From IMG/VR virus record IMGVR_UViG_3300045988_092906, positions 1 to 16,031 of that record: a DNA stretch of 16,031 bases. One strand, written 5' to 3'. Numbering within the stretch: position 1 is the stretch's first letter; every line of letters starts with the position of its first letter. This stretch comes from a virus. Made by a program: the position numbers and the translations under genes. Below are positions 702-15,936 of the stretch, piece by piece. Below the pieces are notes generated by a model. That model had not been told where the DNA came from. It did not search any database and saw only the letters and a list, made by a program, of their open reading frames with translations.

Positions 702-1158
702 ATACAGATTACATAATATCACAGATTTTGGGGTAGAAATACACGACTTTCACACTGAAAACTCACTAAACAACTACATAGCCTTATTTGTAGACGAACC
801 CTACTGGGTAGAAAATTTGTATACTAATAAAAACATTTATGTGGGTTTTGATGGAGAAGCCTATACCATTGATACTAAGGGAAATAAAGACTATATAGAG
901 ACATTTCAAAATCATAAAATCGATTCAGATAATGTTTCACGTGAAACATTGCATGAAACTCCTACAGAATGGATAACAAGACAAATACCTACAGAAGAAA
1001 AAGAGACATACACCAAATTAGAAAAAATATCATCTTTCTTAGGGGTCTTATCAGTCATAATCATGGCAACCTTTTTATTATATTTGTTCTTATCTTCTGT
1101 ATCATTTATAGCGGAACATTTCTCAGAGTTTACGTGGAAAGTGTTTAATATTTTATAA
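694..1158 (+). CDS. Hypothetical early protein, 154 aa, with a C-terminal transmembrane anchor (ITR copy 1)
   Basis: RBS AAGGAGAGG upstream and an 8-nt overlap with the previous ORF. There is a hydrophobic stretch ISSFLGVLSVIIMATFLLYLFLSSVSFI near the C-terminus. An identical copy lies at 14874-15338. It contains the 20-bp palindrome at 931-950 in frame (NVSRETL). Confidence 0.7.
   Translation: MIKYRLHNITDFGVEIHDFHTENSLNNYIALFVDEPYWVENLYTNKNIYVGFDGEAYTIDTKGNKDYIETFQNHKIDSDNVSRETLHETPTEWITRQIPTEEKETYTKLEKISSFLGVLSVIIMATFLLYLFLSSVSFIAEHFSEFTWKVFNIL
931..950. repeat. Copy of the conserved palindrome AATGTTTCACGTGAAACATT, inside a coding sequence
   Basis: Perfect 20-bp palindrome. The 18-bp core ATGTTTCACGTGAAACAT is identical to the copies at 8746, 9924, 10104, 11182 and 15083. 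Confidence 0.9.
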
Positions 1159-1170
1159 GGAGGAAAAAAT

Positions 1171-1212
1171 ATGGCAAAATTAACAAATGCGTTATTACGT
1201 TATTCCCAATGA
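1171..1212 (+). pseudogene. Truncated 5' fragment of the AbrB-like gene (MAKLTNALLRY + SQ*), created at the ITR junction
   Basis: The RBS plus the first 11 codons are identical to the start of the 14667-14861 gene. The frame then runs into the buried terminus copy and stops at TGA 1210-1212. Confidence 0.8.
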
Positions 1213-1254
1213 GACCACGACACCCTTTTGATTAAAAAAGCACGAAATAAATAC
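1195..1254 (+). repeat. Internal direct copy of the genome terminus (equals positions 8-66); candidate relic of the ancestral left end
   Basis: Aligned by eye. 1195-1247 equals 8-60 except C1215 vs G28. One extra T at 1248 follows, then AAATAC matches 61-66. Similarity ends where the terminus runs into the TTGACA promoter and the internal copy runs into the terminator. Confidence 0.85.
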
Positions 1255-1281
1255 CCCTCGTTTTTTCGAGGGGTATTTATT
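1246..1281. terminator. Bidirectional intrinsic terminator between the left-ITR operon (+) and the late operon (-)
   Basis: Perfect 15-bp stem AATAAATACCCCTCG / CGAGGGGTATTTATT with a TTTTTT loop. The A/T-rich arm ends give a U-rich tail in both directions. It lies between convergent genes ending at 1158/1212 and 1304. Confidence 0.75.
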
Positions 1282-1303
1282 AAATTTCTGCTACTAAATA
1301 TTG

Positions 1304-1990
1304 TTAGTATGTAATCATGTTATTTAATCTGCACCCAAAATAATTGTAAGGCGTAGAGGCGTTTGTATCATTAAAGACTACGTCACCATTAGTTTTTAGT
1401 CTGAATCCCTCAATTGCTAAGGTGCTTACAGCATTAGATTGGTCAACTACATTTCCAATAAAATCAACGTCTTTTGCAGGTGTAATATTTGGGATATTGA
1501 ATAAAACTCTTCTTGCTGAGCTACCACTTCCACCTAATACGGCGTTAAAAACAATAAGATGTGCTGTTCTATTAACACGGGCAATAACAGAGCCCGAATT
1601 GCCTGTAATTTCTTCCCACAAAGAAATATTATTGTTTAATTGTGCAATACTAGCTTGTGCGTCTTTTGCGTTATCATTTGCAACCGTTGCTGCTGCCTGT
1701 GCTTTTGAAATATTGCTATCTCTAGTTACGTTGCTAGAATTAATAGCGGAGACTGAGGATTGTAAATCGGAAATGTTCTTGCTATTTTGATTGGCTACTG
1801 TTGTTGCCTGTGTTGCTTTGGCTTCTGCGCTACCAGCTGTCTGATTAGCTGTTGTAGCTGTTTCTTGTACTTGATGAATACCTGCATCAATTTTAGACAT
1901 ATCAGAGTTATAATCTCCTAAATATGTCGGCTTGTCAGTACCAATGTACTGACTTAAATCATAGTAAGTTGTTTTGTTTGTTGAACTCAT
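1304..1990 (-). CDS. Tail fibre / receptor-binding protein, 228 aa
   Basis: Last gene of the late operon, with RBS AAGGAGGAG. The N-terminal YYDLSQYIGTDKPTYLGDYNSDMSKID motif is of the kind seen at N-termini of Firmicute phage fibres. An Ala/Gln/Asn/Ser-rich helical stalk is followed by a C-terminal globular part. Confidence 0.55.
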   Translation of the reverse strand: MSSTNKTTYYDLSQYIGTDKPTYLGDYNSDMSKIDAGIHQVQETATTANQTAGSAEAKATQATTVANQNSKNISDLQSSVSAINSSNVTRDSNISKAQAAATVANDNAKDAQASIAQLNNNISLWEEITGNSGSVIARVNRTAHLIVFNAVLGGSGSSARRVLFNIPNITPAKDVDFIGNVVDQSNAVSTLAIEGFRLKTNGDVVFNDTNASTPYNYFGCRLNNMITY

Positions 1991-2010
1991 TTTTGACTCC
2001 TCCTTAATAA

Positions 2011-2841
2011 TTATAATTTTAATGCTGTTTTAGCATTACTATCAAATGTGTAAGCGCTTAACGCTTTAGCTTCAAATCCCGATACTGTCAACAATAAAGC
2101 ATCAAATTCGCTTGTTGTGATAGGGTTGTTAAAGTGCAATTCTGCTAATTGATAGATAACATCTTGATAAAAGACATATTCGCCCGTAAACGGGTTGTTC
2201 ATGTATAAATTACTATCAACTCTAAATCTTTTTGCGCCGTATAAATCAAAATCTGTACAACTTAAAAGTAAATTATCAAACTCTGTGCAAGTTAAATTTA
2301 AAGAATCAAATTCAGTACAAGTTAAAGCATAATATCTTAGATTATCGTACATATCACCTAACGCTTGATTAAGGCTTGTATAATAACCTTTAACAGGGTT
2401 TAAAACTTGCATATTACTTGGAACAAAATTGTTAATATAATCATACAATTTTGCGATAGCAGAATCAATATATTCTCTTGTTTCAGTGTTTAACTGATAA
2501 ACGAGAATGTTTAATGTATTGATTCTACTAATTAAATCTTTTTGAATATTATCAATTTTCTTATCCAGTTCATCATCACGTTTATCCATATCATTTCTGA
2601 TATTTGCTTCTACTTCTGTGATATGTTTATAGATGTCTGCATTAAGACCGTCAACGTATTCTTTTAACTCTTTTACTTTTTTATCGGTGTACTGTTTATA
2701 TGCGTCTGTGAAACCATTAATTGCGTCAATACATTCATTGACTTTGTAATCAATATAGCACAAACATTCATAGTAACTCTGCTTATTGCTATATACACTT
2801 GGAACATCGCAACATATTAACGGTGTTAATTCTTTTGCCAT
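2011..2841 (-). CDS. Tail appendage/fibre protein, 276 aa, with a coiled-coil N-half and Cys-containing decapeptide repeats
   Basis: RBS AAGGAGGTG. It sits after the lower collar gene, as phi29 gp12 does. The N-terminal ~140 aa are charged and heptad-like. The repeats are LTCTEFDSLN/LTCTEFDNLL/LSCTDFDLYG, with a degenerate second block ITTSEFDALL/LTVSGFEAKA/LSAYTFDSNA. Confidence 0.5.
   Translation of the reverse strand: MAKELTPLICCDVPSVYSNKQSYYECLCYIDYKVNECIDAINGFTDAYKQYTDKKVKELKEYVDGLNADIYKHITEVEANIRNDMDKRDDELDKKIDNIQKDLISRINTLNILVYQLNTETREYIDSAIAKLYDYINNFVPSNMQVLNPVKGYYTSLNQALGDMYDNLRYYALTCTEFDSLNLTCTEFDNLLLSCTDFDLYGAKRFRVDSNLYMNNPFTGEYVFYQDVIYQLAELHFNNPITTSEFDALLLTVSGFEAKALSAYTFDSNAKTALKL
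2245..2334 (-). repeat. Three tandem 30-bp imperfect repeats encoding the fibre decapeptide repeats
   Basis: Plus-strand units start with ATCAAA at 2245, 2275 and 2305 (ATCAAAnTCnGTnCAAnTTAAA...). Confidence 0.8.
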
Positions 2842-2859
2842 TATATCACCTCCTTTTTT

Positions 2860-3567
2860 TTACCACACTTTTAGAAACAAATCTCTGCAAGCTTCTACAA
2901 GTTCTTTATTAATATTCTGTATTTGCTCACGATATTCTGCAATAGCTTCACTTGTTGATTTTCCTCTTAATCCTATCTCTTTTGTGTCTCTGTCTCTTTT
3001 GCTGTCTTTGTTGTCGTTTCCTGTATGTTTATTGTTTGCTGTTGTAGTCGTGTTATTGACAGTTTCGCCCCTACTCATAGCACTTGCGTAGTCTTGTGTA
3101 GCTACGGTGACTTGTGGATTGTCACTATCAATATTTTGGTAGTTTTGATTGTTTTTTACCTCGCTGTTTCCTGCATCTGTTGAGTTAGTTGTTGTTTTTT
3201 CATTTCCTTTTTCTGCTTCTGTGAATGTTACATATATATTTGTAAAAGGGTTATCGTTTTGAATTGCATTATACAGTTTTGTATAATATGGCGTCAATTC
3301 ATACATTTTTGCTATAAAAGCAGTTTTCCACATTCCTAGAGTTTCAAAACCAATATAATTATTCCAGTATCTTAACAAGAAATAGGTTTTAAAGGTGTAT
3401 AGGTCTTTTCTATCCTCTGAATAAAAAGGAAAATCAAAGTCAAAAAATTTGCTCTGTGTTTTATCGATTGTTCTTTGAACTGATAAGTCCATGCTCCACA
3501 ATTCCTGTTGCGGTATAAAACTTTCGCAAATGTCTTTTACAGTGGTAGTGTATTTACTCAATTTCAT
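2860..3567 (-). CDS. Lower collar protein (phi29 gp11 position), about 235 aa
   Basis: It lies directly downstream of the portal gene and overlaps it, and its size is similar to gp11. The central region is Asn/Thr-rich. The ORF-track start at 3570 is a GTG inside the RBS-like AGAGGGTG, so I prefer the ATG at 3567; the start remains uncertain. Confidence 0.5.
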   Translation of the reverse strand: MKLSKYTTTVKDICESFIPQQELWSMDLSVQRTIDKTQSKFFDFDFPFYSEDRKDLYTFKTYFLLRYWNNYIGFETLGMWKTAFIAKMYELTPYYTKLYNAIQNDNPFTNIYVTFTEAEKGNEKTTTNSTDAGNSEVKNNQNYQNIDSDNPQVTVATQDYASAMSRGETVNNTTTTANNKHTGNDNKDSKRDRDTKEIGLRGKSTSEAIAEYREQIQNINKELVEACRDLFLKVW

Positions 3568-4453
3568 CACCCTCTTTTCCTTTTTGCATATACTTGTCGG
3601 GGATATACCCGTTTAACATAGTAGGTAATTCACTATTGAAGTCCACCGACACATTAAGTCCCCATAATTTATTGATAGCTTTCGCGCATCTTCTTCTTAA
3701 TGTCAATCCAACATTTCGATTTGCTTCAACCTGTCCATTATTTCCTGCCGTTTCGCCAGTCACAAGGCGTTCACCTTTTTCTACTGGGTTGCTTTCATAC
3801 CCTAAAGAAGTTAATACTTGTGACCATAAATCCCTTAATTCCTGTTCGCATTTGTCTACTATGTAAGGCGCTCCCATGTTTAAGGCTTTAATGTCTTTCA
3901 AATTCAATGAATCTGAAACTTTAAGTACAGGCAAATAGTTATCGTACATTTCGCCTAATATTTCAAAGGACATTTTTTCATTATCAGAAGAAGAAAGTAC
4001 AACAGGTGTACGCTGTGCATACATATTAATACCTTTTGTTTTCCAAGTATTCGCCATAGCGTCTGCATACATTAATGCTTTGTAGTAGTATGGCATGGTT
4101 GAGTAATTGTTCCACAAGATACAACTATTTTCTTTCCCGTATTCTTCAATATAACCATTTGCCGTATAAGCAATTCTATCTTGAGGAATATTGTAAATAT
4201 CGGGCATACCCGAAAGTGTAACATTCATAAAAGCATACCCTGCAATATCATCCTTGATGAATACACCCAAACCACGCCAAAATAATGTTTGTTCAATGTA
4301 CATGGGCAATATTTCTTCGGGTAAGCCACGCCACTGGTATCTGTTTACAAATATATCGAAAATATCATAAAAATAAATAGATTTGATTATTTCAAAATCA
4401 TCTTTCATATTTTTATTTTTACATTTTTCAAAAACTCTTAAAGGGTTTCGCAC
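3554..4453 (-). CDS. Portal / upper collar connector (phi29 gp10-like), 299 aa
   Basis: Blocks match my recollection of phi29 gp10. These are YQWRGLP vs FEWENLP, NMYAQRTPVVL vs NQNAQKTPVLI, GAPYIVDK vs DAPYVVDK, EKGERLVTGE vs EKKERMVTDE, and INKLWGLNVSVDF vs INELYGLNVKVKF. GTG start at 4453 with RBS AAGGTGGTG. Confidence 0.85.
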   Translation of the reverse strand: MRNPLRVFEKCKNKNMKDDFEIIKSIYFYDIFDIFVNRYQWRGLPEEILPMYIEQTLFWRGLGVFIKDDIAGYAFMNVTLSGMPDIYNIPQDRIAYTANGYIEEYGKENSCILWNNYSTMPYYYKALMYADAMANTWKTKGINMYAQRTPVVLSSSDNEKMSFEILGEMYDNYLPVLKVSDSLNLKDIKALNMGAPYIVDKCEQELRDLWSQVLTSLGYESNPVEKGERLVTGETAGNNGQVEANRNVGLTLRRRCAKAINKLWGLNVSVDFNSELPTMLNGYIPDKYMQKGKEGDEIE

Positions 4454-4465
4454 GTTATCACCACC

Positions 4466-6082
4466 TTAATTATTTGACAATCCATAATTCCCTATGTCAT
4501 CAGTATGCCACAAAGTCACACCGTTGTCAAATATATTTCGCAATTTTTTTAATTGGTCTAAATCAATATCGCCTGTAAAACCACAATGTGATGTTTTTAC
4601 ATAATTCCATTGTGAACGAGAACGCAAATACGGTGTTGCAATTTTATTAATCGGATAACCAAATTGTTCGAAAAAACTATCTGCCATTTCAGCAAATTGT
4701 CTTTTGCACGACATTTCATAAAAATCAACACCACACTCTTTAATACCGGTCAACACATTTTCGGATAACGCTTTTCCATGTGTCACTCCTGCATTTCTCG
4801 CTCTGTCTGTCTGATTTGCTAACATTCCAAGAGCGTCCCAAAAAGCGTTCGTTGTTTTTCCTAATCCGTTAAGACCTCCTTGTAAACTTCCCCCAGCCAA
4901 TCCTGCTATTGCTGTTCCTGTTCCTATGGTAGCATCAACCGCTGTGTGAACTTGTGACAGAGCTATAGAACTTTTATTTTGCGCAAGCCATGCCCTGTAC
5001 GTATCAGAAGAAAAGGAACACATAGGAAAAGACGAGTTAATAAGCGCTTCATTCATTAGTCCGTGCCCTAATTCTTCGCGCGTCTTATAGTTTTTAGGCG
5101 CTGTGAGAACTTGTGGAAGTGTTGCAATTGTCCCGTAGCTGTCGAACTCAATCGACTTGTCTTGATTATAACTATATTCATACCTATAAATATGTGTGTT
5201 GCCTTGGTTATTATCAGCAAGACAAAATAACCACGGATAAGAATATAATTTTTTATTCTTCGGTTTATAACCCTCAAACACATTTTCGGATATCTGCATA
5301 CTTGTTATTTTTGGCTTAATTTCTTTTCCACCTAGTGCAAGCGTGCATAATTTTGGTGACATAAATAAACCTATAACAGCGTCTTGCGCTCCTTGGCTAT
5401 TATAATCTTGTAATAGCGTGTTTATTCCTTTTAGTCCATCATCTGTAGTAATATCATAATGGCCGATACTACCCCAACAGTACACTCCATTTTCCACTCT
5501 CCCCTCGAACCAACTTTGTTCCGTTGTACCACGTGTCACAAAAGCGCAACATTCAGTCGGTGTTAAGTCTAGTTTTTTATGCCGTGATACAATTGTCTCA
5601 CCTGTTTCGATATTAACAGGCGTTAAATTTACTCCTATCCCATCAGCACTTCTTGGGATATGATGATACTCTACAAAGCAAGGTTTAATATTCGCATCAT
5701 AAAAGTTATTCTGAAAAACATCAAGCGAAAAATTAATGCGTGTTGTTTTTTCAGACAACCATTCTATTGAATCGATAAAACAAAATACCCACTCGTTAGA
5801 AATGCCTGTATTCTGAAAAGCTAAATAATTGAGATTAAGTGCTTTCATTTCTGTGAACGGTACGCGAATGTCATAATTTCCTATTCGGATAGGCGCAAGA
5901 TGTGATAAATCAACCCCGTTGATATGTTTACGATAAGACTCTAAATGATTTAATAAGTCCTCTTTTGAGTTGTATAGTCTAACATGCTCGTATTCGTCCG
6001 ACCATGGCACTCCACTGTACAATCTTAATTTTGTTTCGGGGTTGCGTGGTGCAACCCCTCCCTGTGTTGGTAAATTTATCAT
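4466..6082 (-). CDS. Tail knob / distal tube protein (phi29 gp9-like), 538 aa
   Basis: The C-terminus FFEQFGYPINKIATPYLRSRSQWNYVKTSHCGFTGDIDLDQLKKLRNIFDNGVTLWHTDDIGNY closely parallels my recollection of gp9 ([37 protein letters not shown]...IFDNGITLWHTDNIGNY). The Gly/Ala-rich hydrophobic loop TGTAIAGLAGGSLQGGLNGLG resembles the gp9 membrane-active loop. Confidence 0.85.
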   Translation of the reverse strand: MINLPTQGGVAPRNPETKLRLYSGVPWSDEYEHVRLYNSKEDLLNHLESYRKHINGVDLSHLAPIRIGNYDIRVPFTEMKALNLNYLAFQNTGISNEWVFCFIDSIEWLSEKTTRINFSLDVFQNNFYDANIKPCFVEYHHIPRSADGIGVNLTPVNIETGETIVSRHKKLDLTPTECCAFVTRGTTEQSWFEGRVENGVYCWGSIGHYDITTDDGLKGINTLLQDYNSQGAQDAVIGLFMSPKLCTLALGGKEIKPKITSMQISENVFEGYKPKNKKLYSYPWLFCLADNNQGNTHIYRYEYSYNQDKSIEFDSYGTIATLPQVLTAPKNYKTREELGHGLMNEALINSSFPMCSFSSDTYRAWLAQNKSSIALSQVHTAVDATIGTGTAIAGLAGGSLQGGLNGLGKTTNAFWDALGMLANQTDRARNAGVTHGKALSENVLTGIKECGVDFYEMSCKRQFAEMADSFFEQFGYPINKIATPYLRSRSQWNYVKTSHCGFTGDIDLDQLKKLRNIFDNGVTLWHTDDIGNYGLSNN

Positions 6083-6103
6083 AGATATAAACCTCCATTA
6101 AAT

Positions 6104-7372
6104 TTACGCTTTTGTGAAACTTGCTGTTTTTGTGATAGTCTCGTTCGGTCTATAAATAGCTTTCAAGATAATAGTTCCTGTTTCGTCCGCTCCTGTATGA
6201 AGTAAATGTGTCCCTGGGATAACATAAGTCTTAGCTGACGTTGCACCGCTATCAACTTCCAATGTCACCAAATTCTGATGATATGTTCCCGTGCTACCTT
6301 TAACAGTAACTTCTACTTCCTGTGTCTGTCCTGCTGTGTATGTTCCTGCTGTTACTGACAAGGTTGGCGTTTCAACCACTGTGTCTGTGGTAAATACTCG
6401 AATTGGGTAGAACGGACTAGCACTGACCATTTCCACCTGTGTATAGAAGTAGTTCCATGAAAGCACATTTGCCAGTCTCTGGTCTGTCATTTCTTTGAAC
6501 TGGTCACGCACATTGAAGAATCGGACATCACACAAGACACCCTGAATAGCTGTGTTAGCGAATTTATCTACAATCACAGTCTGTACTTCCACTTCTGCTC
6601 TGTCCAAATGGAAAGCGTAAGCTAAAGCGTCAACACTGACCTGTGCGTTTACATTTGGGGTCGTTATCCAAATGAGATTGGACGGCATAGCGTGAGACGT
6701 TGCTCCTGCTGTGTTGTTTTCCGGTAATGGGAAACCAAACTCACCAACAGCTCTTTTTACTTCAATCAATAATTTTTTCGCTGTCGCTTCATCAACAACC
6801 GCGTCAACAGTCACTGCCGGAAGTACCTCTTTTTCATAACCAACATTAATCAAATCACGCATAGCAAGATACTCGTCCCAGTTCGCGGCTGTGATGGCAC
6901 TCTCCATTTTTGCCATAATCATGTCACGGATTCCATACTCGCTTGTAAAAGCTTTTCTCAAGTTGTCGTATGTCACAGTGACAGGGTACTGGATTTCAAG
7001 GTTTACATTGTGAAACACTGACATAATGTAGGATTGGTACTGCTGAAAGGCATACTTAAAGTCTGCCTGTGAGTCATACACGTGACCCTTGCACATATTT
7101 ACATATGTTTCCTCGTGTGTCTCCCCGTAACGCATTGGCTCTTTCTTGAAACGTGCTAACGGATTTCTCCACGCAATACTGTCTACGGTCTGCATACCAA
7201 TACGGTTAATTAATGACGGAACAATTTCGTTCCGAACAGGGGCAAAATTCAGAATGTTATCATAGACAGCCTGTAAATTGTCTGAGACTTCCACAGGCAA
7301 GTGGTTCTGAACCTCGAAAGAAAGCTCCTGTTTGACTGCTTTTAAAATGTTTTTATTTGTTGCGTCTGCCAT
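6104..7372 (-). CDS. Major capsid protein (phi29 gp8-like) with a C-terminal Ig-like domain, 422 aa
   Basis: [34 protein letters not shown] parallels gp8 [42 protein letters not shown] parallels LYWNYYYHV. The C-terminal ~90 aa are a Thr/Val/Gly-rich beta-type segment like the gp8 BIG2 domain. It follows the scaffold gene. Confidence 0.85.
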   Translation of the reverse strand: [422 protein letters not shown]

Positions 7373-7387
7373 TTGTTAAAACCTCCC

Positions 7388-7669: not shown

Positions 7670-7711
7670 TCAGATTCCTCCTTTTTATTTATTACCCTTT
7701 TTACAGTTTCT

Positions 7712-7740
7712 ATTATATCACCATGGAAAGAAAAAGTAAA
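7712..7740 (-). promoter_or_regulatory. Candidate promoter for the structural (late) operon
   Basis: On the minus strand: TTTACT (7740-7735), 17-nt spacer, TGaTATAAT (7720-7712). It overlaps the tail-lysin stop codon, 43 nt upstream of the scaffold start. Confidence 0.45.
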
Positions 7741-8725: not shown

Positions 8726-8740
8726 TTCTTGTCACCTCAC

Positions 8741-8782
8741 AAAAAATGTTTCACGTGAAACATTTGTATTCACGTGAAACAC
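8741..8782 (-). terminator. Paired palindrome copies (full 8744-8765, degenerate 8769-8781) forming a hairpin plus U-tract after the endolysin gene
   Basis: Minus-strand RNA is GUGUUUCACGUG-13 nt-CACGUGAAACAU followed by UUUUU. That gives a 12-bp stem with one G-U pair. Alternatively it is two adjacent protein-binding sites. It lies 8 nt after the endolysin stop and directly before the tail-lysin RBS. Confidence 0.4.
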
Positions 8783-8789
8783 CTCATAA

Positions 8790-9641: not shown

Positions 9642-9868
9642 TACTCTCCCTCCTTTTTCTGCTCAAATGTATCACAAATACGTTGAAGCGCAAGCGTGTT
9701 ATTGTTCAACGCTTCTGTAATATCTGCCATTTCCTGCTTATGTGCTTCATTCAGCTTGTCTAAGCGTTCATCGTTTTTATCTTCGCGATATTTCACGTAC
9801 CACATTGAAGCTATCGCAACAACTGTAGGAATGCCTAACGTGTTAATCATTGTCATGATTTCCTGCAT
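9641..9868 (-). CDS. Holin-like protein (BhlA/UviB-like architecture), 75 aa from the ATG at 9868
   Basis: One N-terminal TM segment (LGIPTVVAIASMWYV) is followed by a charged coiled-coil tail. It sits directly upstream of the endolysin and is coupled to it. RBS AAAGGAGGTGG precedes the ATG at 9868. The longer track ORF (to 9910) would run through the candidate promoter and has no RBS. Confidence 0.55.
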   Translation of the reverse strand: MQEIMTMINTLGIPTVVAIASMWYVKYREDKNDERLDKLNEAHKQEMADITEALNNNTLALQRICDTFEQKKEGE

Positions 9869-9888
9869 GATACCACCTCCTTTTTTAT

Positions 9889-9917
9889 ATAATAACACAT
9901 ATAAACACATTTGTAAA
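9889..9917 (-). promoter_or_regulatory. Candidate promoter of the lysis cassette
   Basis: On the minus strand: TTTACA (9917-9912), 17-nt spacer, TGtTATTAT (9897-9889). The holin RBS begins about 10 nt downstream of the -10, and the palindrome array abuts the -35. Confidence 0.5.
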
Positions 9918-9918
9918 T

Positions 9919-9956
9919 AAAAAATGTTTCACGTGAAACATTTTCACGTGAAACAT
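9919..9956 (-). terminator. Paired overlapping palindrome copies (24-bp perfect palindrome 9921-9944 plus partial 9942-9956) forming a hairpin plus U-tract
   Basis: Minus-strand RNA is AUGUUUCACGUG-AAAAUGUUU-CACGUGAAACAU followed by UUUUUAUUU. That gives a 12-bp perfect stem. It is positioned to end the transcript from the 10076-10104 promoter, and could equally be a tandem operator upstream of the holin promoter. Confidence 0.45.
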
Positions 9957-10069
9957 AATGCACGTTACAAAATAATCAAATCAAAGGGGACGCAAAACCA
10001 AAAATTGATATCAGACTACTTGTCTATGTGCGTGTATATCAATTACAATGTTCGTATTATTTTGGGTGC
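9957..10069 (-). ncRNA. Candidate structured non-coding RNA (pRNA-like?) next to the packaging ATPase gene
   Basis: A consensus promoter lies immediately upstream, and there is no RBS-preceded ORF. The predicted 5' end pairs with the 3' end. Plus-strand 10066-10070 GTGCA pairs with 9959-9963 TGCAC, and 10056-10064 ATTATTTTG pairs with 9968-9976 CAAAATAAT. There is an internal 9-bp hairpin (10003-10011 with 10036-10044). A terminator-like element follows at 9919-9956. Confidence 0.4.
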
Positions 10070-10075
10070 AATATT

Positions 10076-10104
10076 ATTATATCAAAGATATCTTAAATTG
10101 TCAA
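10076..10104 (-). promoter_or_regulatory. Consensus sigma-A-type promoter driving the ORF-free region
   Basis: On the minus strand: TTGACA (10104-10099), exactly 17 nt, TGaTATAAT (10084-10076). This is the best consensus match in the window. The -35 overlaps the palindrome at 10103-10122 by 2 nt. Confidence 0.7.
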
Positions 10105-10122
10105 TGTTTCACGTGAAACATT
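10103..10122. repeat. Copy of the conserved palindrome AATGTTTCACGTGAAACATT
   Basis: Perfect 20-bp palindrome. It overlaps the ATPase stop codon (10121-10123) on one side and the -35 of the downstream promoter on the other. Confidence 0.9.
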
Positions 10123-11167
10123 AAAAAGATATAACATCAAATATCATATCCTTACATTCTAAATTTTCAAATAATAGTAATCCTCTATTAAAATATTCGC
10201 GTAACATTGCTACAATATAATGCGTTGAGTTTACACGAATTGCCGTATTATCTATTACGTCGTTTTTTGTAAAACATATTCGTGTAGGGAAACTTTCGTC
10301 TGCCCCTGTTGCTATATACATAAAAGTGTCATATTTTCTTGCGTTATACATTTTCTCGTTAAATCTGATTGTACAAATATAACGTGATTGTCCTGTTGGT
10401 TTTCCAATTAAACAATCATTATCATTTAGATATTTATTTTCGCTCGCATATTCGTTATAAGATGCGCCTTGAAATGCTCGTGCAATGCCACTTTCCTTAT
10501 AGGCTGTTGAAGCATTTTCATTATAGGTTCGCTCAAATACCCAACCATCACCGCGCAATATTTTAGTGTTATATTTTAACATTTTATTGATGCCAAATAC
10601 ACTATAGTATGGGTTTAACAACGAGACGGTATTTGAAGCCATATATAGCATAACTCTACGATGTTGCTTCCCGTGTCCTGCACTAATAGTCGTAAGCAAA
10701 GATAAAAGCTTATTTACCTCATTCGTTAAATATACGTTATCCTCATCTTGATATTCGTCAAAAAATACAGAACGAATATTTACGAACAACCCACGCATTT
10801 TTTTATATTTTCTCGCAACGGATAAGGCTAAACAATATCCGCATGGCTCTTCGTTTAGAAATAGTTGAATCAATGAACCATTCATCAAACTCTTTTCAGT
10901 CATAACATACCCGTCAAATTTTTCAGATATATCGCCAAAATATGTGTCGGCACAATTCTTCATATCAACTACATTTCTATATAGATATATAAATTGGTTT
11001 TCGGGTCTATATTTATCTTTCAAAAAATCGGACACTTGTCTGCACTTGATAGAATAACTTTTGCCTGCCGTTCTATTCCCGTCAACAATATAAATATCGG
11101 GAATATTCCCATTTTTATCTTTTAAAGTTAATAATCTATCACAATGATAATAGCCATCATTTTTCAT
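10121..11167 (-). CDS. DNA packaging (encapsidation) ATPase, phi29 gp16-like, 348 aa from the ATG at 11167
   Basis: Walker A is GNRTAGKSY (gp16 GARGIGKSY) and Walker B is VFFDEY (gp16 IVFDEF). QFIYLYR parallels QFIYVRR, LTNEVNKLLSLL parallels IPNEVSALLNLM, and ASNTVSLLNPYY parallels LSNAVSVVNPYF. RBS TAGGAGGTG lies upstream of the ATG at 11167. Confidence 0.85.
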   Translation of the reverse strand: MKNDGYYHCDRLLTLKDKNGNIPDIYIVDGNRTAGKSYSIKCRQVSDFLKDKYRPENQFIYLYRNVVDMKNCADTYFGDISEKFDGYVMTEKSLMNGSLIQLFLNEEPCGYCLALSVARKYKKMRGLFVNIRSVFFDEYQDEDNVYLTNEVNKLLSLLTTISAGHGKQHRRVMLYMASNTVSLLNPYYSVFGINKMLKYNTKILRGDGWVFERTYNENASTAYKESGIARAFQGASYNEYASENKYLNDNDCLIGKPTGQSRYICTIRFNEKMYNARKYDTFMYIATGADESFPTRICFTKNDVIDNTAIRVNSTHYIVAMLREYFNRGLLLFENLECKDMIFDVISF

Positions 11168-11180
11168 TTTAACACCTCCT

Positions 11181-11200
11181 AATGTTTCACGTGAAACATT
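11181..11200. repeat. Copy of the conserved palindrome AATGTTTCACGTGAAACATT, abutting the ATPase RBS
   Basis: Perfect 20-bp palindrome located between the terminator (11208-11236) and AGGAGGTG (11179-11172). Confidence 0.9.
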
Positions 11201-11207
11201 TTTTATT

Positions 11208-11236
11208 AAAAAGTAGGGGTAGCATATTGCCACCCC
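11208..11236 (-). terminator. Intrinsic terminator after the p5-like gene
   Basis: Minus-strand RNA is GGGGUGGCA-AUA-UGCUACCCC (9-bp stem including one G-U pair) followed by UACUUUUU. On the plus strand the same position is an A-C mismatch, so the hairpin favours the minus strand. Confidence 0.55.
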
Positions 11237-11276
11237 CATTAAGAAATAGAGAATAAAACTTTCTCGCGTCGTTATA

Positions 11277-11627
11277 TTATAAAGTTGATACGTCCAAGGT
11301 GCAATTAATATAATCGCGTCCTGCTTTTGTCTTTCCGCTGATTTTAATGATAGAAAACTTTTCACCCTCCATCACATTTTCAATATCTTTCAATGACTGT
11401 CTAAATGTAGCAGACTGACCCGAATATACTTTTTTCTCTGGTGTGATAATACTCACAATTTCCTGCACATCGCCCTTATCCTTAATATCATCAAAGATAA
11501 TATATCCATCGACTGGGATTGATGCCCCGTCCTCAATGTTTTTTAAAGGCTCAATATCTGGTGCTGTAGTCATAAGATACTTCTCAACCTTTGTAAACTC
11601 TCTGCTCATTTCTTTAATTTCTACCAT
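11277..11627 (-). CDS. Putative single-stranded DNA-binding protein (phi29 p5-like), 116 aa
   Basis: RBS CAGGAGGTA. The size and position are as expected for p5. The pattern similarity to my recollection of p5 is loose: IVSIITPEKKVYSGQSATF vs VTTIFAADGSLYSAISKTV, and FSIIKISGKTKAGRDYINCTL vs FKVKVVQGTSSKGNVFFSLQL. This needs an HMM check. Confidence 0.4.
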   Translation of the reverse strand: MVEIKEMSREFTKVEKYLMTTAPDIEPLKNIEDGASIPVDGYIIFDDIKDKGDVQEIVSIITPEKKVYSGQSATFRQSLKDIENVMEGEKFSIIKISGKTKAGRDYINCTLDVSTL

Positions 11628-11651
11628 AATAATTTACCTCCTGTTTTCCTG

Positions 11652-11951
11652 CTAATCTTCCTTTTTCATTTCCTGTAATTCTGCTTCGGTGACAATTTTC
11701 TCGCTCTTAACATCTGAATTTAATAAGAACTGTTCATCTGTCATGACACGTTTTTCCAGTTTAAACTTGATATCAAGAATGGAAACAATATCGCCTTTGT
11801 GCTGTTTTTCAATCAAGATTTCTGCCTTTTCCCTTGTCTTGCAATTTGCTATTTTCTCATCAAAGCAATCTTTCTTGATTTCGCCTGTCTCCTTGTCCTT
11901 GTAAATTCTTTCAACAGATACTTCTGCCGTTACTAATGTCCTCGTAAACAT
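11652..11951 (-). CDS. Putative dsDNA-binding / histone-like early protein (phi29 p6-like), 99 aa
   Basis: RBS GGAGGAAAAAAG. It is small with an acidic C-terminal tail and precedes the p5-like gene, as gene 6 precedes gene 5 in phi29. Any sequence resemblance is weak (LVTAEVSVERI vs ITKTTVNVAKM). Confidence 0.3.
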   Translation of the reverse strand: MFTRTLVTAEVSVERIYKDKETGEIKKDCFDEKIANCKTREKAEILIEKQHKGDIVSILDIKFKLEKRVMTDEQFLLNSDVKSEKIVTEAELQEMKKED

Positions 11952-12022
11952 CTTTTTTCCTCCTTTTTTCTGCTTTCTTTGAGTGTGAATTGCAATGTAA
12001 TATGTTTATTTATTACACTATT

Positions 12023-12051
12023 ATAATAACACAACGACTAAATATAGTCAA
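12023..12051 (-). promoter_or_regulatory. Candidate promoter for the p6-like/p5-like gene pair
   Basis: On the minus strand: TTGACT (12051-12046), 17-nt spacer, TGtTATTAT (12031-12023). It starts 3 nt after the polymerase stop codon, in a 103-bp intergenic gap. Confidence 0.6.
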
Positions 12052-12054
12052 GTA

Positions 12055-13941
12055 TTATATTATAATTTTTTTATCTTTTTGTTCATGGATATTAAAGTCT
12101 TTATTTCTTAATACAATACCACCTTTCACGCGCTCTGCTTTCAAATTACAAGTTTCCATACTAAGACCAGTGGATAATTCTGAGATATCTCTCCCATCTT
12201 CCACAAACTTTCTTTTCGCTTGACTACTCATTCCACAAGCTTTTATATCAAGATAAGGTTCACAAGGCACATGATTCTCTTCAACAATATGTTCTGCATA
12301 AGTCTTTTGCCTTTCATAATAAGCAAAATCAAATGTACTTTCACATTTCCAACAACAAAAATTAGTAGGGTGTTCCACAACTTTATTCGCTTTATCAAGA
12401 CCTATCAAATGAATAGAATCAGTGTCGGCATAGCAAAATCGGTCATAATTAGCCATTGCGTGACGAATTGTAAAATTCATGGCATATGATGTAATAGCAC
12501 TCCCGATAGGGATATACCCTACTTTCTTATTATGCTCTTCATGTAGAATAAATCTAATAATTCCATCTTCATCAAGATAAGGCTCTTTATACGAGGAATT
12601 ATCAGACATAGCAAATTTGCCATAAAGATTATTTAAAAAGAGTTTAGCTTTTTGTCTTTTAAAGCCTTTTGATGTTCTTTTTTCTTCTCCGTATTTATTT
12701 ATATAATCGTCAAAAAACCCTTGTCTCGCGTAGAACCACACGTAATCATATATAACCAAATCAAAAATATCATAAGTTTCTTGAAATAATTCCCAATCAG
12801 TACAAGTCATTGTTATAGTAATATTAGTATCATGCATTTGTCCATCAATATCACGATAATATCTATAATATTCACCCTTATATCTGACATTAGAACTATA
12901 TAAATTTTCATTCGCCTTATATAATGCGTTATGTCTAATATGTAACCATGGAAATGCCCCTGCTTTTAACTGAAATCTACAATTGAAGCGGATAAAAAAA
13001 TATTTATTAGTAGAGCTTATAAGTTCATTAGGTGGCGCTCCCCTATGATATTCGCCATGTCCAAATGGGTATTTATTCCCACTAATACTATGCATCATAG
13101 ACGGGTACAAAGAGTTTACATCATATACCAAACCATTGCTCACCACCATGTGTGCATATCTTGGATTGACATAGCACCAACCACCGTGATATGATTTATG
13201 AATATAATCCCACTGATTCCACGATTCTGTAATAGATTCGTCAAGATAATCTTCTCTAATATCGGGGAATAACTTATCATATTGTTTACCATCATAAAAA
13301 CCTTTAAATTCTGATAAACAACATGAGCCTATGGTTAATTTATCATGCTTTTCATTAAACATCATTTCTAATGCTTCTTTTAAAACTAATACGTCATTTT
13401 CAATATATTTCTTTTCATTTTCTGATATCTCACAATAAGCATATCTTTCGCCCTCATAATTCATATCAAGCTTTTGGTGCTTCGTCCCAAATGATTTCCC
13501 GATATTTTTTAATGATGATGGCATAAGCTTTAAAGAATTTCGGATTTCTAAAAAAGTCTTATTCCATTTTAATTTAAGCCAATACCACGACCCCATATCT
13601 GATATACATGTTTGAAATTCTTTTGACCTCATTTCCTTGTCTTTACAATGTACCCATGTCCACCCCTCTTTTAACAGAAAATCTACTATAAAAGAACCGT
13701 CAAAAGCTAAGTTATGAAAATATAATATATTATTACCTTTCATAGTTAAAAATCTATTTAAAAAATCTCTTATCGAATGTGTGATTGTTACTGTCTCAGT
13801 ATCATCATATAAAGCCACGTCAGCGCCCGACCAAACTTCTGTAGTATCTTGTTTTTTATGATTTTCTTGCTCTACTTTTTCGCCCCATACTGTTGTCTCA
13901 AAATCACAAGCCCAAAAAGTGATATTCTTTTTACGTGGCAT
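12055..13941 (-). CDS. Protein-primed family-B DNA polymerase (phi29 gp2-like), 628 aa
   Basis: All signature motifs are visible: ExoI ACDFETT, ExoII HNLAFDGSFI, SLKLMP (S/TLx2h), ExoIII YIENDVLVL, motif A VYDVNSLYPS, motif B KAKLFLNNLYGKF, motif C YADTDSIHL and KxY RQKTYAE. It is colinear with phi29 DNAP as I recall it. I prefer the ATG at 13941 (RBS AGAGGTG 6 nt upstream) over the GTG at 13950, which lies within that RBS. Confidence 0.95.
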   Translation of the reverse strand: MPRKKNITFWACDFETTVWGEKVEQENHKKQDTTEVWSGADVALYDDTETVTITHSIRDFLNRFLTMKGNNILYFHNLAFDGSFIVDFLLKEGWTWVHCKDKEMRSKEFQTCISDMGSWYWLKLKWNKTFLEIRNSLKLMPSSLKNIGKSFGTKHQKLDMNYEGERYAYCEISENEKKYIENDVLVLKEALEMMFNEKHDKLTIGSCCLSEFKGFYDGKQYDKLFPDIREDYLDESITESWNQWDYIHKSYHGGWCYVNPRYAHMVVSNGLVYDVNSLYPSMMHSISGNKYPFGHGEYHRGAPPNELISSTNKYFFIRFNCRFQLKAGAFPWLHIRHNALYKANENLYSSNVRYKGEYYRYYRDIDGQMHDTNITITMTCTDWELFQETYDIFDLVIYDYVWFYARQGFFDDYINKYGEEKRTSKGFKRQKAKLFLNNLYGKFAMSDNSSYKEPYLDEDGIIRFILHEEHNKKVGYIPIGSAITSYAMNFTIRHAMANYDRFCYADTDSIHLIGLDKANKVVEHPTNFCCWKCESTFDFAYYERQKTYAEHIVEENHVPCEPYLDIKACGMSSQAKRKFVEDGRDISELSTGLSMETCNLKAERVKGGIVLRNKDFNIHEQKDKKIII

Positions 13942-13955
13942 TATAATCACCTCTT

Positions 13956-14663
13956 TTATTCTTTTTCAATAACAATATCCTGTTCTTGAAGAAATTCTTG
14001 AAAATCTTCTGTAGTGCTAAGCACACCCATTCTGTGCAAAATATTCCAAAAGACAGCATCAACTGTAGCTTTATCCATATATGGTTCGGTTGGAAATGCT
14101 TCGGGTTCTTTAGAATATGTATACGCAAATAACGCTCTTTCTTTATCTGATGCATTGTATAATAAAGCGTCTGTTTTTTCACGTAAATAATCAGCTGTTT
14201 TTGGTGCGAAACTTTCTAAAGAATCATACCATGAATCAATAATAGCTTCATAATCTAATACAGGTGTTGCTATATTAACTCTAATACCTTTCTTTAGTAT
14301 CATCTTTAATTCCTTTAATCCATAATCATGAATTCTTGCGTATTCCTGTTCTTGTGGTGTTAGTTTTATAAATATTCTATTTCTTTCAAGTGCTTTTTTA
14401 CGCCCGTACTCTTTAGCGGTTATTGCCTCGCCTGTAAGCATATCAATAACTGTCGCGTTTTTTCGTATTTCTTTAGCTGTCTGTTTTTTCAATCTTTCAA
14501 TAGAAGCTTGTGTTGGATTTTTAACACGCTTTATTATCTTTACTTGTACACCTTGTTTTTGCTGATTTCTAACACGTGCTAAATACTTATTATATTCTTT
14601 ATTGTATTGCTGTTGCAAAATAGAGGCTTTTGTGTGTTTCTTTTTTATTCGCTTATTTGCCAT
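13956..14663 (-). CDS. Candidate terminal protein (replication primer), 235 aa
   Basis: It lies immediately upstream of the polymerase gene, as in phi29 (gene 3 then gene 2), and its size is close to phi29 TP (266 aa). The N-terminus is strongly basic (MANKRIKKKHTK...RVRNQQKQGVQVKIIKRVK). The genome has ITRs and a protein-primed-type polymerase. I did not recognise direct sequence similarity. Confidence 0.55.
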   Translation of the reverse strand: MANKRIKKKHTKASILQQQYNKEYNKYLARVRNQQKQGVQVKIIKRVKNPTQASIERLKKQTAKEIRKNATVIDMLTGEAITAKEYGRKKALERNRIFIKLTPQEQEYARIHDYGLKELKMILKKGIRVNIATPVLDYEAIIDSWYDSLESFAPKTADYLREKTDALLYNASDKERALFAYTYSKEPEAFPTEPYMDKATVDAVFWNILHRMGVLSTTEDFQEFLQEQDIVIEKE

Positions 14664-14666
14664 GGT

Positions 14667-14861
14667 TTAATTGCCCTCCTTTTGTACTTTTCTTAACAAT
14701 AAGCCATGTGGAACACGGGTATACTCAATATAATCCCCCGCATGAATATCTAAGTCTTTGATTGCTTCTTTTGGGAGCATGACACGGGCGGTATAACCAC
14801 CCGAGCCACTTTTCGTGAACATTACTTTATAACGTAATAACGCATTTGTTAATTTTGCCAT
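14667..14861 (-). CDS. AbrB/SpoVT/MazE-type (looped-hinge helix) DNA-binding protein, 64 aa
   Basis: The pattern ARVMLPKEAIKDLDIHAGDYIEYTRVPHGLLLRKV fits the SpoVT-AbrB domain signature (xRVxIPKExRxxLgIxxGDxvEi...). RBS AAGGAGGAAAAAATATG. The first 33 nt lie inside the ITR. Confidence 0.6.
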   Translation of the reverse strand: MAKLTNALLRYKVMFTKSGSGGYTARVMLPKEAIKDLDIHAGDYIEYTRVPHGLLLRKVQKEGN

Positions 14862-14873
14862 ATTTTTTCCTCC

Positions 14874-15338
14874 TTATAAAATATTAAACACTTTCCACGT
14901 AAACTCTGAGAAATGTTCCGCTATAAATGATACAGAAGATAAGAACAAATATAATAAAAAGGTTGCCATGATTATGACTGATAAGACCCCTAAGAAAGAT
15001 GATATTTTTTCTAATTTGGTGTATGTCTCTTTTTCTTCTGTAGGTATTTGTCTTGTTATCCATTCTGTAGGAGTTTCATGCAATGTTTCACGTGAAACAT
15101 TATCTGAATCGATTTTATGATTTTGAAATGTCTCTATATAGTCTTTATTTCCCTTAGTATCAATGGTATAGGCTTCTCCATCAAAACCCACATAAATGTT
15201 TTTATTAGTATACAAATTTTCTACCCAGTAGGGTTCGTCTACAAATAAGGCTATGTAGTTGTTTAGTGAGTTTTCAGTGTGAAAGTCGTGTATTTCTACC
15301 CCAAAATCTGTGATATTATGTAATCTGTATTTAATCAT
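14874..15338 (-). CDS. Hypothetical early protein, 154 aa, with a C-terminal TM anchor (ITR copy 2)
   Basis: Translation identical to 694-1158. Confidence 0.7.
   Translation of the reverse strand: MIKYRLHNITDFGVEIHDFHTENSLNNYIALFVDEPYWVENLYTNKNIYVGFDGEAYTIDTKGNKDYIETFQNHKIDSDNVSRETLHETPTEWITRQIPTEEKETYTKLEKISSFLGVLSVIIMATFLLYLFLSSVSFIAEHFSEFTWKVFNIL
15082..15101. repeat. Copy of the conserved palindrome AATGTTTCACGTGAAACATT (mirror of 931-950)
   Basis: Read directly from the sequence: CAATGTTTCACGTGAAACATTATC. Confidence 0.9.
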
Positions 15339-15866: not shown

Positions 15867-15936
15867 TTTTATTCCTCCTTTTCATAGTATCTTTTTTCCC
15901 TCCTTATATTTACTAGGTTTCCTTGTTTCTATAATT

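What the first reader, a model, noticed from the sequence alone, without database searches (positions are those of the whole stretch)
931..15101. Exact 18-bp palindrome ATGTTTCACGTGAAACAT present six times, plus two degenerate copies
Full copies lie at 932-949, 8746-8763, 9924-9941, 10104-10121, 11182-11199 and 15083-15100. Flanking A/T bases extend the symmetry to 20-24 bp. Partial copies lie at 8769-8781 and 9942-9956. There are about 7x10^10 possible 18-mers and only 1.6x10^4 positions, so this cannot be chance. Four loci are intergenic: before the ATPase RBS, over the ATPase stop and the -35 of the next promoter, upstream of the holin promoter, and between endolysin and tail lysin. The two ITR copies are embedded in frame in the 154-aa ORF. 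Exact conservation of sequence, rather than only of pairing, points to recognition by a dimeric DNA- or RNA-binding protein (operator, activator or antiterminator site). Intercistronic RNA processing or stabilising hairpins directly 5' of Shine-Dalgarno sites is an alternative. The motif has a CACGTG core and does not match operator consensus sequences I know (LexA/Cheo, CRP/Rex, cre, CodY, TnrA). I do not recognise it from described phi29-like phages.
Basis: seen in the sequence. Interest (0 to 1): 0.8.

Follow-up and report, generated by a model that had tools for sequence, protein, structure and literature searches.

The report
Host centromere (parS) sites on phage
The repeated palindrome is the bacterial chromosome's centromere sequence (parS, the binding site of the segregation protein ParB/Spo0J). 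This small gut phage carries six perfect copies, most likely to ride the host's chromosome-segregation machinery as phage phi29 does to get trapped in spores.

Summary
In detail: six exact copies, really a 20-bp palindrome AATGTTTCACGTGAAACATT, plus two degenerate neighbours. They represent five independent loci, because one lies in the 1203-bp inverted terminal repeat.

The 16-bp core TGTTTCACGTGAAACA is the canonical chromosomal parS, the ParB/Spo0J binding site. The same 20-mer occurs in at least 120 bacterial contigs across phyla, typically beside parB, parA, gidA and gidB.

The window is a complete phi29-like phage genome that encodes no detectable ParA or ParB. Phage phi29 is already known to carry parS sites, and Spo0J is implicated in moving its genome into the spore.

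In 14 relatives about 83% identical in DNA, the syntenic 16-mers are perfect in 53 of 67 cases, against 9% for background 16-mers. No compensatory changes were seen. This points to a protein-binding DNA site rather than an RNA hairpin.

A parS directly after the packaging-ATPase stop codon recurs from phi29 to gut phages. Two sites plus their partial copies also form terminator-like hairpins.

Verdict: a new member of a known kind, host parS used to hitchhike on host segregation. Binding and host are untested. Spo0A boxes are not enriched.

The parts
931..950 (.). Perfect parS (16-bp core 933-948) in the left ITR. It lies in frame (NVSRET) in the 154-aa ORF 694-1158 and is a duplicate of the 15082-15101 copy.
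8745..8764 (.). Perfect parS between the endolysin stop (8790) and the tail-lysin start (8725).
   Evidence: Perfect in 14/14 relatives.
8766..8781 (.). Degenerate parS copy (3 mismatches, one arm intact). On the - strand it pairs with the full site to form a -22 kcal/mol hairpin followed by U6.
   Evidence: A degenerate copy is present at the same place in relatives.
9923..9942 (.). Perfect parS. It ends 5 bp upstream of the -35 of the holin promoter and forms the 3' arm of the terminator hairpin of the upstream non-coding RNA.
9940..9956 (.). Degenerate parS copy (2 mismatches) that forms the 5' arm of the 15-bp terminator-like hairpin (-18.9 kcal/mol, then U6).
10103..10122 (.). Perfect parS whose 16-mer starts immediately after the ATPase TAA stop codon. 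It abuts the -35 TTGACA of the 10104..10076 promoter.
   Evidence: The same arrangement is seen in phi29, CS229P2 and other clades.
11181..11200 (.). Perfect parS between an intrinsic terminator (11238..11214) and the ATPase RBS/ATG (11167).
15082..15101 (.). Perfect parS in the right ITR, in frame in ORF 14874-15338 (-).
1..1203 (.). Left inverted terminal repeat, an exact reverse complement of 14829-16031. It carries two ORFs and one parS.
14829..16031 (.). Right inverted terminal repeat.
10121..11167 (-). phi29 gp16-type packaging ATPase gene, flanked on both sides by parS.
   Evidence: PF05894, E 1.5e-29
10076..10104 (-). Perfect sigma-70-type promoter (TTGACA-17-TATAAT, 12/12 matches) for the non-coding RNA. 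Its -35 is contiguous with parS.
   Evidence: Conserved in relatives.
9920..10069 (-). Conserved structured non-coding RNA, a candidate prohead (packaging) RNA, bracketed by two parS sites.
   Evidence: No Rfam match.
9889..9917 (-). Promoter-like site (TTTACA-17-TATTAT) upstream of the holin gene.
11214..11238 (-). Intrinsic terminator-like hairpin ending the early operon, directly upstream of the parS at 11181-11200.

Best explanation
The palindromes are host-type centromere sites (parS).

Shown here:
- The 16-bp core is identical to the chromosomal parS consensus.
- The phage encodes no detectable ParA or ParB.
- The same sequence sits beside parB/parA in bacteria of many phyla.
- The sites are under strong purifying selection at the DNA-sequence level in related phages.

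From established knowledge: ParB/Spo0J dimers nucleate on parS, spread as CTP-dependent clamps and form the partition complex. This complex loads SMC and is moved with the replication origin.

Known for phi29 from the literature: its parS sites and host Spo0J are implicated in carrying the infecting genome into the forespore.

Inferred for this phage:
- After injection, host ParB loads at the five parS loci, one of which lies about 0.9 kb from each telomere.
- The 16-kb linear genome then behaves like an extra origin region. It is co-segregated with the host chromosome into the forespore when the host sporulates, or to daughter cells during a delayed infection.
- Lytic growth resumes later.

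Site placement may matter. Sites lie directly after terminators, after the ATPase stop, and against the -35 of two promoters. This may shield ParB complexes from transcription, or let ParB damp the packaging-RNA and lysis promoters. That step is speculative.

My estimates: ParB binding about 0.9, segregation hitchhiking as the selected function about 0.6, spore entrapment specifically about 0.45.
For: - Six exact copies; none of 200 shuffles reaches this count. All six are a 20-bp palindrome.
- The core TGTTTCACGTGAAACA is used as parS in 27 papers. The tabulated consensus for B. subtilis is TGTTNCACGTGAAACA.
- The exact 20-mer is in at least 120 bacterial contigs; about half of the 80 listed are Bacillota/Clostridia.
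- The commonest neighbouring gene families in those contigs are ParB (48/120 loci), ParA (46), GidA (41) and GidB (41).
- The window is a phi29-like genome: polB, gp16 ATPase, phi29 MCP, portal, tail knob.
- No ParA/ParB was found in the window with Pfam, PHROGs or tblastn.
- phi29 is reported to have five parS sites, and Spo0J is implicated in prespore segregation. My scan finds four exact consensus sites in phi29, three of them with the same A...T flanks.
- In 14 relatives at 80-85% nucleotide identity, syntenic 16-mers are perfect in 53/67 cases. The figure is 9.1% for other 16-mers.
- Flanking bases vary, and the mutated copies I inspected show no compensatory changes.
- The ITR copy is an island of identity inside a diverged ORF.
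- In an unbiased capsid-based sample, all 15 genus-level relatives carry 3-6 sites and a sister clade carries 2-3. Most distant relatives carry none.
- Among 17 cultured phi29-like phages, 8/10 with spore-forming hosts have sites, against 1/7 with other hosts (Fisher p=0.015).
Against: - There are no binding or in vivo data for this phage.
- The host is unknown. It is only inferred to be a gut Clostridia member, so sporulation is not established.
- The Spo0A arm of the phi29 mechanism is not evident: 3 TGTCGAA boxes against 1.9 expected, and none at early promoters.
- The link with spore formers is imperfect and not phylogenetically corrected. GA-1 and PumA1 lack sites, and an Enterococcus phage has one perfect site.
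- Two sites plus partial copies look like intrinsic terminators, so part of the selection could act on RNA.
- Many sites lie in the few intergenic gaps, which may simply be where a 16-bp palindrome is tolerated.
Confidence: 0.75

Rival explanations
1. The palindromes act at the RNA level as intercistronic hairpins or intrinsic terminators. The match to parS would be secondary or coincidental.
For: - On the coding strand, 8741-8789 folds at -22 kcal/mol and 9919-9956 at -18.9 kcal/mol. Each is followed by a U-run.
- The second hairpin ends a conserved non-coding RNA.
- In other clades parS sits inside or directly after GC-rich terminator hairpins.
Against: - A single site folds at only -5.9 kcal/mol.
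- Three of the five loci have no U-run on the coding strand, and one locus lies inside an ORF.
- In relatives the 16-mer is kept letter for letter, with no compensatory changes. The U-run after the 8746 site shrinks to 3-5 U.
- The identical sequence is the centromere of bacterial chromosomes.
- This reading is plausible only as an added role at two sites.
Confidence: 0.07
2. The sites are operators for a phage-encoded regulator, for example the 64-aa AbrB/MazE-like protein at 14667-14861. This regulator would control middle and late promoters.
For: - Sites touch the -35 of the non-coding-RNA promoter and lie just upstream of the holin promoter.
- The phage encodes a small SpoVT/AbrB-type DNA-binding protein.
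Against: - The same 16-20-mer occurs in phages with no AbrB homologue: phi29, CS229P2, the C. perfringens phages and an inovirus. It also occurs in bacterial chromosomes next to parB.
- A private operator would not be expected to be letter-identical to the universal parS.
Confidence: 0.04
3. The sites do bind host ParB, but the selected function is not segregation. One option is control of phage transcription by ParB occupancy at promoter-proximal sites. The other is titration of ParB away from the host origin, by many replicating phage copies, to disturb host segregation, SMC loading or division.
For: - Two of the four non-ITR sites are promoter-adjacent, and that geometry is conserved in relatives.
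- ParB excess potentiates repression of promoters adjacent to parS in P. aeruginosa (title of PMC5521831, listed).
- Six sites per 16 kb, multiplied by the phage copy number, would far outnumber the roughly 10 chromosomal sites listed for B. subtilis.
Against: - Sites inside an ORF and after terminators do not fit a promoter-control role.
- The distance from parS to the -35 differs between the two promoters (0 and 5 bp).
- The only experimental precedent in this phage family is segregation into spores.
Confidence: 0.14

Closest known systems
parS sites of Bacillus phage phi29 and Spo0J-dependent spore entrapment (Meijer et al. 2005 EMBO J 24:3647, as summarised in PMC2731898)
   Same: - Same phage family and same motif. 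phi29 sites read (A)TGTTTCACGTGGAACA(T), within the TGTTNCACGTGAAACA consensus.
- Several copies on a 16-19 kb protein-primed linear genome, with no phage ParA/ParB.
- One site starts directly after the gp16 ATPase stop codon in both phages.
   Different: - All sites here are the fully symmetric consensus. One locus is duplicated in a 1.2-kb ITR and lies inside an ORF.
- Two sites have adjacent partial copies that build terminator-like hairpins.
- Spo0A boxes, essential to the phi29 switch, are not enriched.
- The host is an unidentified gut anaerobe, and nothing has been tested experimentally.
Chromosomal parS-ParB(Spo0J)-ParA/SMC origin-segregation system of bacteria
   Same: Identical 16-bp, and even 20-bp, sequence. 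In bacteria it clusters beside parB, parA, gidA and gidB.
   Different: - Here the sites are on a virus that supplies no partition proteins.
- Density is one site per about 2.7 kb, against about 10 sites per genome listed for B. subtilis.
Elements that carry only a centromere and borrow another replicon's ParAB (for example SGI1 using the IncC parABS, PMC10954446), and plasmid-prophages with dispersed centromeres (N15 sopC-like sites; from my own knowledge, not checked here)
   Same: Cis-acting centromere copies scattered over a small mobile genome, giving inheritance without (SGI1) or with (N15) the element's own partition proteins.
   Different: - SGI1 and N15 are stably maintained elements, whereas this phage has no lysogeny or plasmid-maintenance genes.
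- N15 encodes its own SopAB.
- The sites here are of chromosomal, not plasmid, specificity.
Rho-independent terminators
   Same: The full-plus-partial copies at 8741-8789 and 9919-9956 form long hairpins followed by U-runs on the coding strand.
   Different: Terminators are conserved in pairing, not in sequence. Here the sequence is invariant and equals parS. Three loci have no U-run.

Membership tests
Chromosomal-type parS (ParB/Spo0J binding site) | 16-bp palindrome matching tGTTNCACGTGAAACa | tested here: met
   All six copies match 16/16. Consensus taken.
Chromosomal-type parS (ParB/Spo0J binding site) | The same sequence serves as the centromere in bacterial chromosomes, clustered near parAB and the origin-region genes | tested here: met
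   The exact 20-mer is in at least 120 bacterial contigs. Neighbours are ParB 48, ParA 46, GidA 41 and GidB 41 of 120 loci, with Pfam confirmation.
Chromosomal-type parS (ParB/Spo0J binding site) | Specific binding by a ParB dimer and CTP-dependent spreading from the site | not testable with these tools
   Needs EMSA or ChIP-seq with host ParB.
Chromosomal-type parS (ParB/Spo0J binding site) | Conserved as a DNA sequence (protein site), not merely as base pairing | tested here: met
   53/67 syntenic 16-mers are perfect against a 9.1% background. The mutated copies I inspected are not compensatory.
phi29-type parS/Spo0J spore-entrapment strategy | phi29-like protein-primed podovirus with several parS sites and no partition proteins of its own | tested here: met
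phi29-type parS/Spo0J spore-entrapment strategy | Host is an endospore former with Spo0J/ParB | tested here: inconclusive
   - The host is unknown.
- The nearest cultured relatives infect Clostridium_Q symbiosum.
- Another parS-bearing phi29-like phage infects Hungatella.
- The endolysin is nearest to those of Butyrivibrio phages.
- Hungatella, Lachnospiraceae and Coprococcus genomes carry the 20-mer.
phi29-type parS/Spo0J spore-entrapment strategy | Spo0A boxes (TGTCGAA) at early/late promoters and near the ends that suppress the lytic cycle | tested here: not met
   3 boxes against 1.9 expected, with 57 of 200 shuffles reaching 3 or more. The boxes lie at 5140, 7418 and 8796, none at the early promoters. 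Only exact consensus boxes were scanned.
phi29-type parS/Spo0J spore-entrapment strategy | The phage genome is recovered from heat-resistant spores, dependent on parS/Spo0J | not testable with these tools
   Needs experiments.
Intrinsic terminator | Stable hairpin immediately followed by a U-run on the transcribed strand, with pairing maintained by covariation | tested here: inconclusive
   The hairpin-plus-U-run criterion is met at two loci only. No covariation was seen, and the U-run is variable in relatives.
Phage operator of the AbrB-like protein | The site co-occurs with the regulator gene across genomes and is private to the phage lineage | tested here: not met
   The motif is present in phages without an AbrB homologue and in bacteria.

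The most novel reading that the evidence does not exclude
Arrays of perfect host parS may be a general persistence device of small gut phages that lack lysogeny genes. I saw them in several phi29-like clades and also in an unrelated 5.8-kb inovirus. Under this reading, host ParB/ParA would partition the phage genome as an episome, into spores or into daughter cells. In this phage, ParB loading against the -35 of the packaging-RNA promoter and next to the holin promoter would at the same time hold back packaging and lysis. That would replace the Spo0A switch used by phi29.
Probability: 0.2. Interest if true: 0.7.

Novelty: new member of a known kind. Interest (0 to 1): 0.45.

Why it matters
phi29-like phages of gut Clostridia are abundant and have no lysogeny modules. 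How they persist alongside their hosts is unclear.

A conserved array of perfect host centromere sites predicts that these "lytic" phages can be carried passively. Carriage could be in spores ("virospores") or in dividing cells, using only cis-acting DNA.

That prediction would affect several practical questions:
- how gut viromes are transmitted between people, since spores survive oxygen and ethanol;
- how phage-host links are inferred;
- how safe such phages are for therapy against C. perfringens, whose podophages I found to carry up to six sites.

The finding also gives a simple sequence marker, the parS count, for predicting this lifestyle from metagenomes.

Finally, it offers a conserved landmark: a parS directly after the packaging-ATPase stop codon, shared by phi29 and distant gut relatives.

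Tried and rejected
- Megablast of the whole window against 50,697 phage records gave no match. Relatives had to be found by protein and by motif.
- An Rfam scan of the window found nothing relevant. The conserved non-coding RNA does not match the phi29 pRNA model, although the model finds phi29's own pRNA.
- Spo0A boxes are not enriched.
- A search for phage-encoded ParA/ParB or other DNA-binding candidates used Pfam, PHROGs and tblastn. Only the AbrB/MazE-like protein turned up.
- The AbrB-operator idea was rejected because the motif occurs without that gene.
- The pure RNA-hairpin idea was rejected as the main explanation, because there is no covariation and the sequence is invariant.
- The original phi29 paper (Meijer 2005) could not be read by DOI or PMC id. 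Its content is cited through PMC2731898.
- Four literature searches for parS in clostridial or gut phi29-like phages found no such report. The C. perfringens podophage paper PMC3362512 does not mention parS.
- The host could not be identified.
Full report
**Observation.** The 18-mer ATGTTTCACGTGAAACAT occurs exactly at 932, 8746, 9924, 10104, 11182 and 15083. No dinucleotide-preserving shuffle comes close to this count. All six copies are in fact the 20-bp palindrome AATGTTTCACGTGAAACATT. Degenerate copies adjoin two of them, at 8766-8781 and 9940-9955. The window has an exact 1203-bp inverted terminal repeat. The copies at 932 and 15083 are therefore one locus counted twice, giving five independent loci.

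**What the window is.** It is a complete phi29-like genome. Pfam finds a protein-primed type-B DNA polymerase, a gp16 packaging ATPase, a phi29-type major capsid protein, a portal, a tail knob, a GH25 endolysin, a tail lysozyme and a 64-aa AbrB/MazE-like protein. Nearly all genes are on the minus strand. Megablast finds no close relative among deposited phages. By polymerase protein, the nearest cultured phages are the Clostridium_Q symbiosum phages CS229P1-3 at 46% identity, followed by unannotated human-faecal contigs.

**Identity of the motif.** The 16-bp core TGTTTCACGTGAAACA is the chromosomal parS, the binding site of ParB/Spo0J.
- A full-text search for the string returns 27 papers, essentially all on ParB-parS.
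- A review tabulates TGTTNCACGTGAAACA for B. subtilis and the same or near-same sequence in other phyla.
- The exact 20-mer occurs in at least 120 bacterial contigs from Bacillota, Alphaproteobacteria, Bacteroidota, Actinomycetota and others. About half of the 80 listed are Bacillota, including Lachnospiraceae, Ruminococcus, Coprococcus and Hungatella.
- Unsupervised clustering of ORFs in those 8-kb loci gives, as the most frequent neighbours, families that Pfam identifies as ParB (48 of 120 loci), ParA (46), GidA (41) and GidB (41). This is the classical origin-proximal cluster.
- The phage itself encodes no detectable ParA or ParB.

**Precedent.** phi29 is reported to contain five parS sites. 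Spo0J is implicated in segregating the phi29 genome into the prespore, while Spo0A boxes suppress the lytic cycle (PMC2731898, citing Meijer et al. 2005). My scan finds four exact consensus sites in phi29. All read TGTTTCACGTGGAACA, and three have the same A...T flanks as here.

**Selection on the sites.** Six relatives first found through the motif scan keep parS at the same syntenic positions while the flanks diverge. The ITR copy is an island of identity inside an otherwise diverged ORF. In 14 genus-level relatives found independently through the capsid protein (80-85% nucleotide identity), the syntenic 16-mer is perfect in 53 of 67 cases. Only 9.1% of other aligned 16-mers are perfect (the relatives are not independent, but the contrast is large). 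The bases just outside the 16-mer vary. Decayed copies (for example TATTTCACGTGAAGCA in L068, or loss of one arm in L011/L099) show no compensatory changes. This is the signature of a protein-binding DNA site, not of an RNA helix.

**Distribution in the family.**
At least about 45 are phi29-like by protein similarity.
- In an unbiased capsid-based sample of 80 loci, all 15 genus-level relatives carry 3-6 sites and a clade at 43% capsid identity carries 2-3. Clades at 60-70% carry 0-2, and most distant relatives carry none. Overall 21 of 66 loci of at least 12 kb have at least one perfect site.
- Cultured phi29-like phages with sites: phi29 (4), Nf (2), DK3 (2 with one mismatch), C. perfringens phages CPS2 and vB_CpeB_CP1 (6 each, partly as tandem pairs about 25 bp apart), Hungatella phage CH17P1 (1), CS229P2 (1) and C. 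innocuum phage CI644P5 (1 with one mismatch).
- Cultured phages without sites: GA-1 and PumA1, and the phages of Curtobacterium, Arthrobacter, Microbacterium, Bifidobacterium, Rhizobium and S. pneumoniae.
- An Enterococcus phage has one perfect site.
- This is 8/10 for spore-forming hosts against 1/7 for others (Fisher p=0.015). The result is suggestive but not corrected for phylogeny.

**Placement.**
- A parS 16-mer begins 1-2 nt after the stop codon of the packaging-ATPase gene (TAA|TGTTTCACGTG...) in this window, phi29, CS229P2 and three further clades. Their ATPases are only 25-40% identical to this window's.
- Of 54 parS-bearing phi29-like genomes, 20 have a site within -20..+30 nt of that stop and 28 within +300 nt. 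Of 163 sites, 46 fall in the -20..+300 nt interval against about 4 expected (many of these genomes are close relatives).
- In other clades parS follows a GC-rich terminator directly (TTTTTAA-parS-TTTTTT) or is embedded in one.
- In the window, the 11182 site follows the terminator at 11238..11214.
- The 10104 site abuts the -35 of a perfect promoter.
- The 9924 site lies 5 bp from the -35 of the holin promoter.

**RNA-level role.** A single site is a weak hairpin (-5.9 kcal/mol). The full-plus-partial copies fold at -22 kcal/mol (8741-8789) and -18.9 kcal/mol (9919-9956), and both are followed by U-runs on the coding strand. A secondary terminator role at these two loci is plausible. It cannot explain the other three loci or the letter-perfect conservation.

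**Mechanism proposed.** Host ParB loads on the phage parS sites and the genome is handled like an origin region. It would be captured in the forespore if the host sporulates, as for phi29, or co-segregated during delayed infection. Established knowledge supports the background steps: ParB nucleates at parS, spreads in a CTP-dependent way and loads SMC (abstracts listed).

**Weak points.**
- There are no binding data.
- The host is unknown.
- Spo0A boxes are not enriched: 3 against 1.9 expected, and none at the early promoters.
- Exceptions exist in the cultured panel.
- ParB-dependent promoter control or ParB titration remain possible primary functions.

**Novelty.** This is a new member of a known kind. 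Four searches of the held literature, and the C. perfringens podophage paper that I opened, turned up no report of parS in clostridial or gut phi29-like phages. The conserved post-ATPase position and the ITR-borne in-ORF copy also appear to be new details.

Noticed in passing
window 10105-10123; L124 (phi29) 17240-17258; L120 (CS229P2) 5780-5798; L166 6136; L050 4843; L082 9920: A parS 16-mer starts 1-2 nt after the TAA stop of the packaging-ATPase gene in phi29, a C. symbiosum phage, this window's clade and other gut clades. Their ATPases are only 25-40% identical to this window's. 20 of 54 parS-bearing genomes show a site within -20..+30 nt of that stop. 46 of 163 sites lie within -20..+300 nt, against about 4 expected.
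   Followed up: yes
window 9920-10069 (- strand), promoter 10104..10076: This ~150-nt stretch has no ORF. It is 90-94% identical among 15 relatives whose genomes are about 83% identical, and its consensus fold has 5 compensatory pairs. It sits directly after the ATPase gene and is a candidate prohead (packaging) RNA. It has no Rfam hit. Other clades (L032, L116, L087, L122, L120, L082) have a different conserved RNA-like region at the same place, with a 5' GGUAUC / 3' GAUAU closing helix.
   Followed up: partly
window 1172-1250 versus 8-63 and 14829-14861: - The inner edge of the left ITR contains the first 11 codons of the AbrB-like gene.
- This is fused, through a 9-nt microhomology (TTACGTTAT), to a 96% copy of the genome terminus (1195-1250 matches 8-63).
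- The 1.2-kb ITR therefore looks like a duplication of the right end onto an ancestral left terminus at about 1188.
- The ancestral genome would have been about 14.8 kb with an ITR of about 63 bp.
- Relatives share the internal terminus copy.
   Followed up: partly
L339 (PQ006098.1, bajarodino virus 72, Inoviridae, 5843 bp) 712, 1182, 2767, 4108, 5764: An unrelated 5.8-kb filamentous phage from rodent faeces carries five perfect parS sites with the same AATG...CATT flanks. Three of them (712, 1182, 5764) start 1-2 nt after a CDS end. Host-type parS arrays are therefore not confined to phi29-like phages.
   Followed up: partly
L001, L003, L004, L005, L016, L049, L059, L062, L067, L078, L079, L090, L098, L103 (IMG/VR contigs of 4-14 kb): These small viral contigs show no detectable similarity to this phage's proteins but carry 4-6 parS sites each, often as pairs 24-35 bp apart. 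I did not work out what they are. They have no hit to the inovirus Zot/Rep proteins or to ParA/ParB.
   Followed up: partly
L326 (CPS2) 10564/10589, 13595/13620; L327 (vB_CpeB_CP1) 6390/6416, 13139/13165: C. perfringens phi29-like phages carry six parS-type sites each. Several form tandem pairs about 25 bp apart in intergenic gaps, for example between the polymerase stop and the ATPase start. The 2012 genome paper on related C. perfringens podophages (PMC3362512), which I opened, does not mention parS.
   Followed up: partly
window 5140, 7418, 8796: There are only three consensus Spo0A boxes (TGTCGAA), which is no more than chance (1.9 expected). None lies at the early promoters near the genome ends. 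The phi29-style Spo0A switch is not evident here.
   Followed up: yes
window 1246-1281 (- strand): A 15-bp-stem terminator-like hairpin lies at the end of the late operon. It overlaps the last 5 nt of the relic terminus copy (1195-1250).
   Followed up: no
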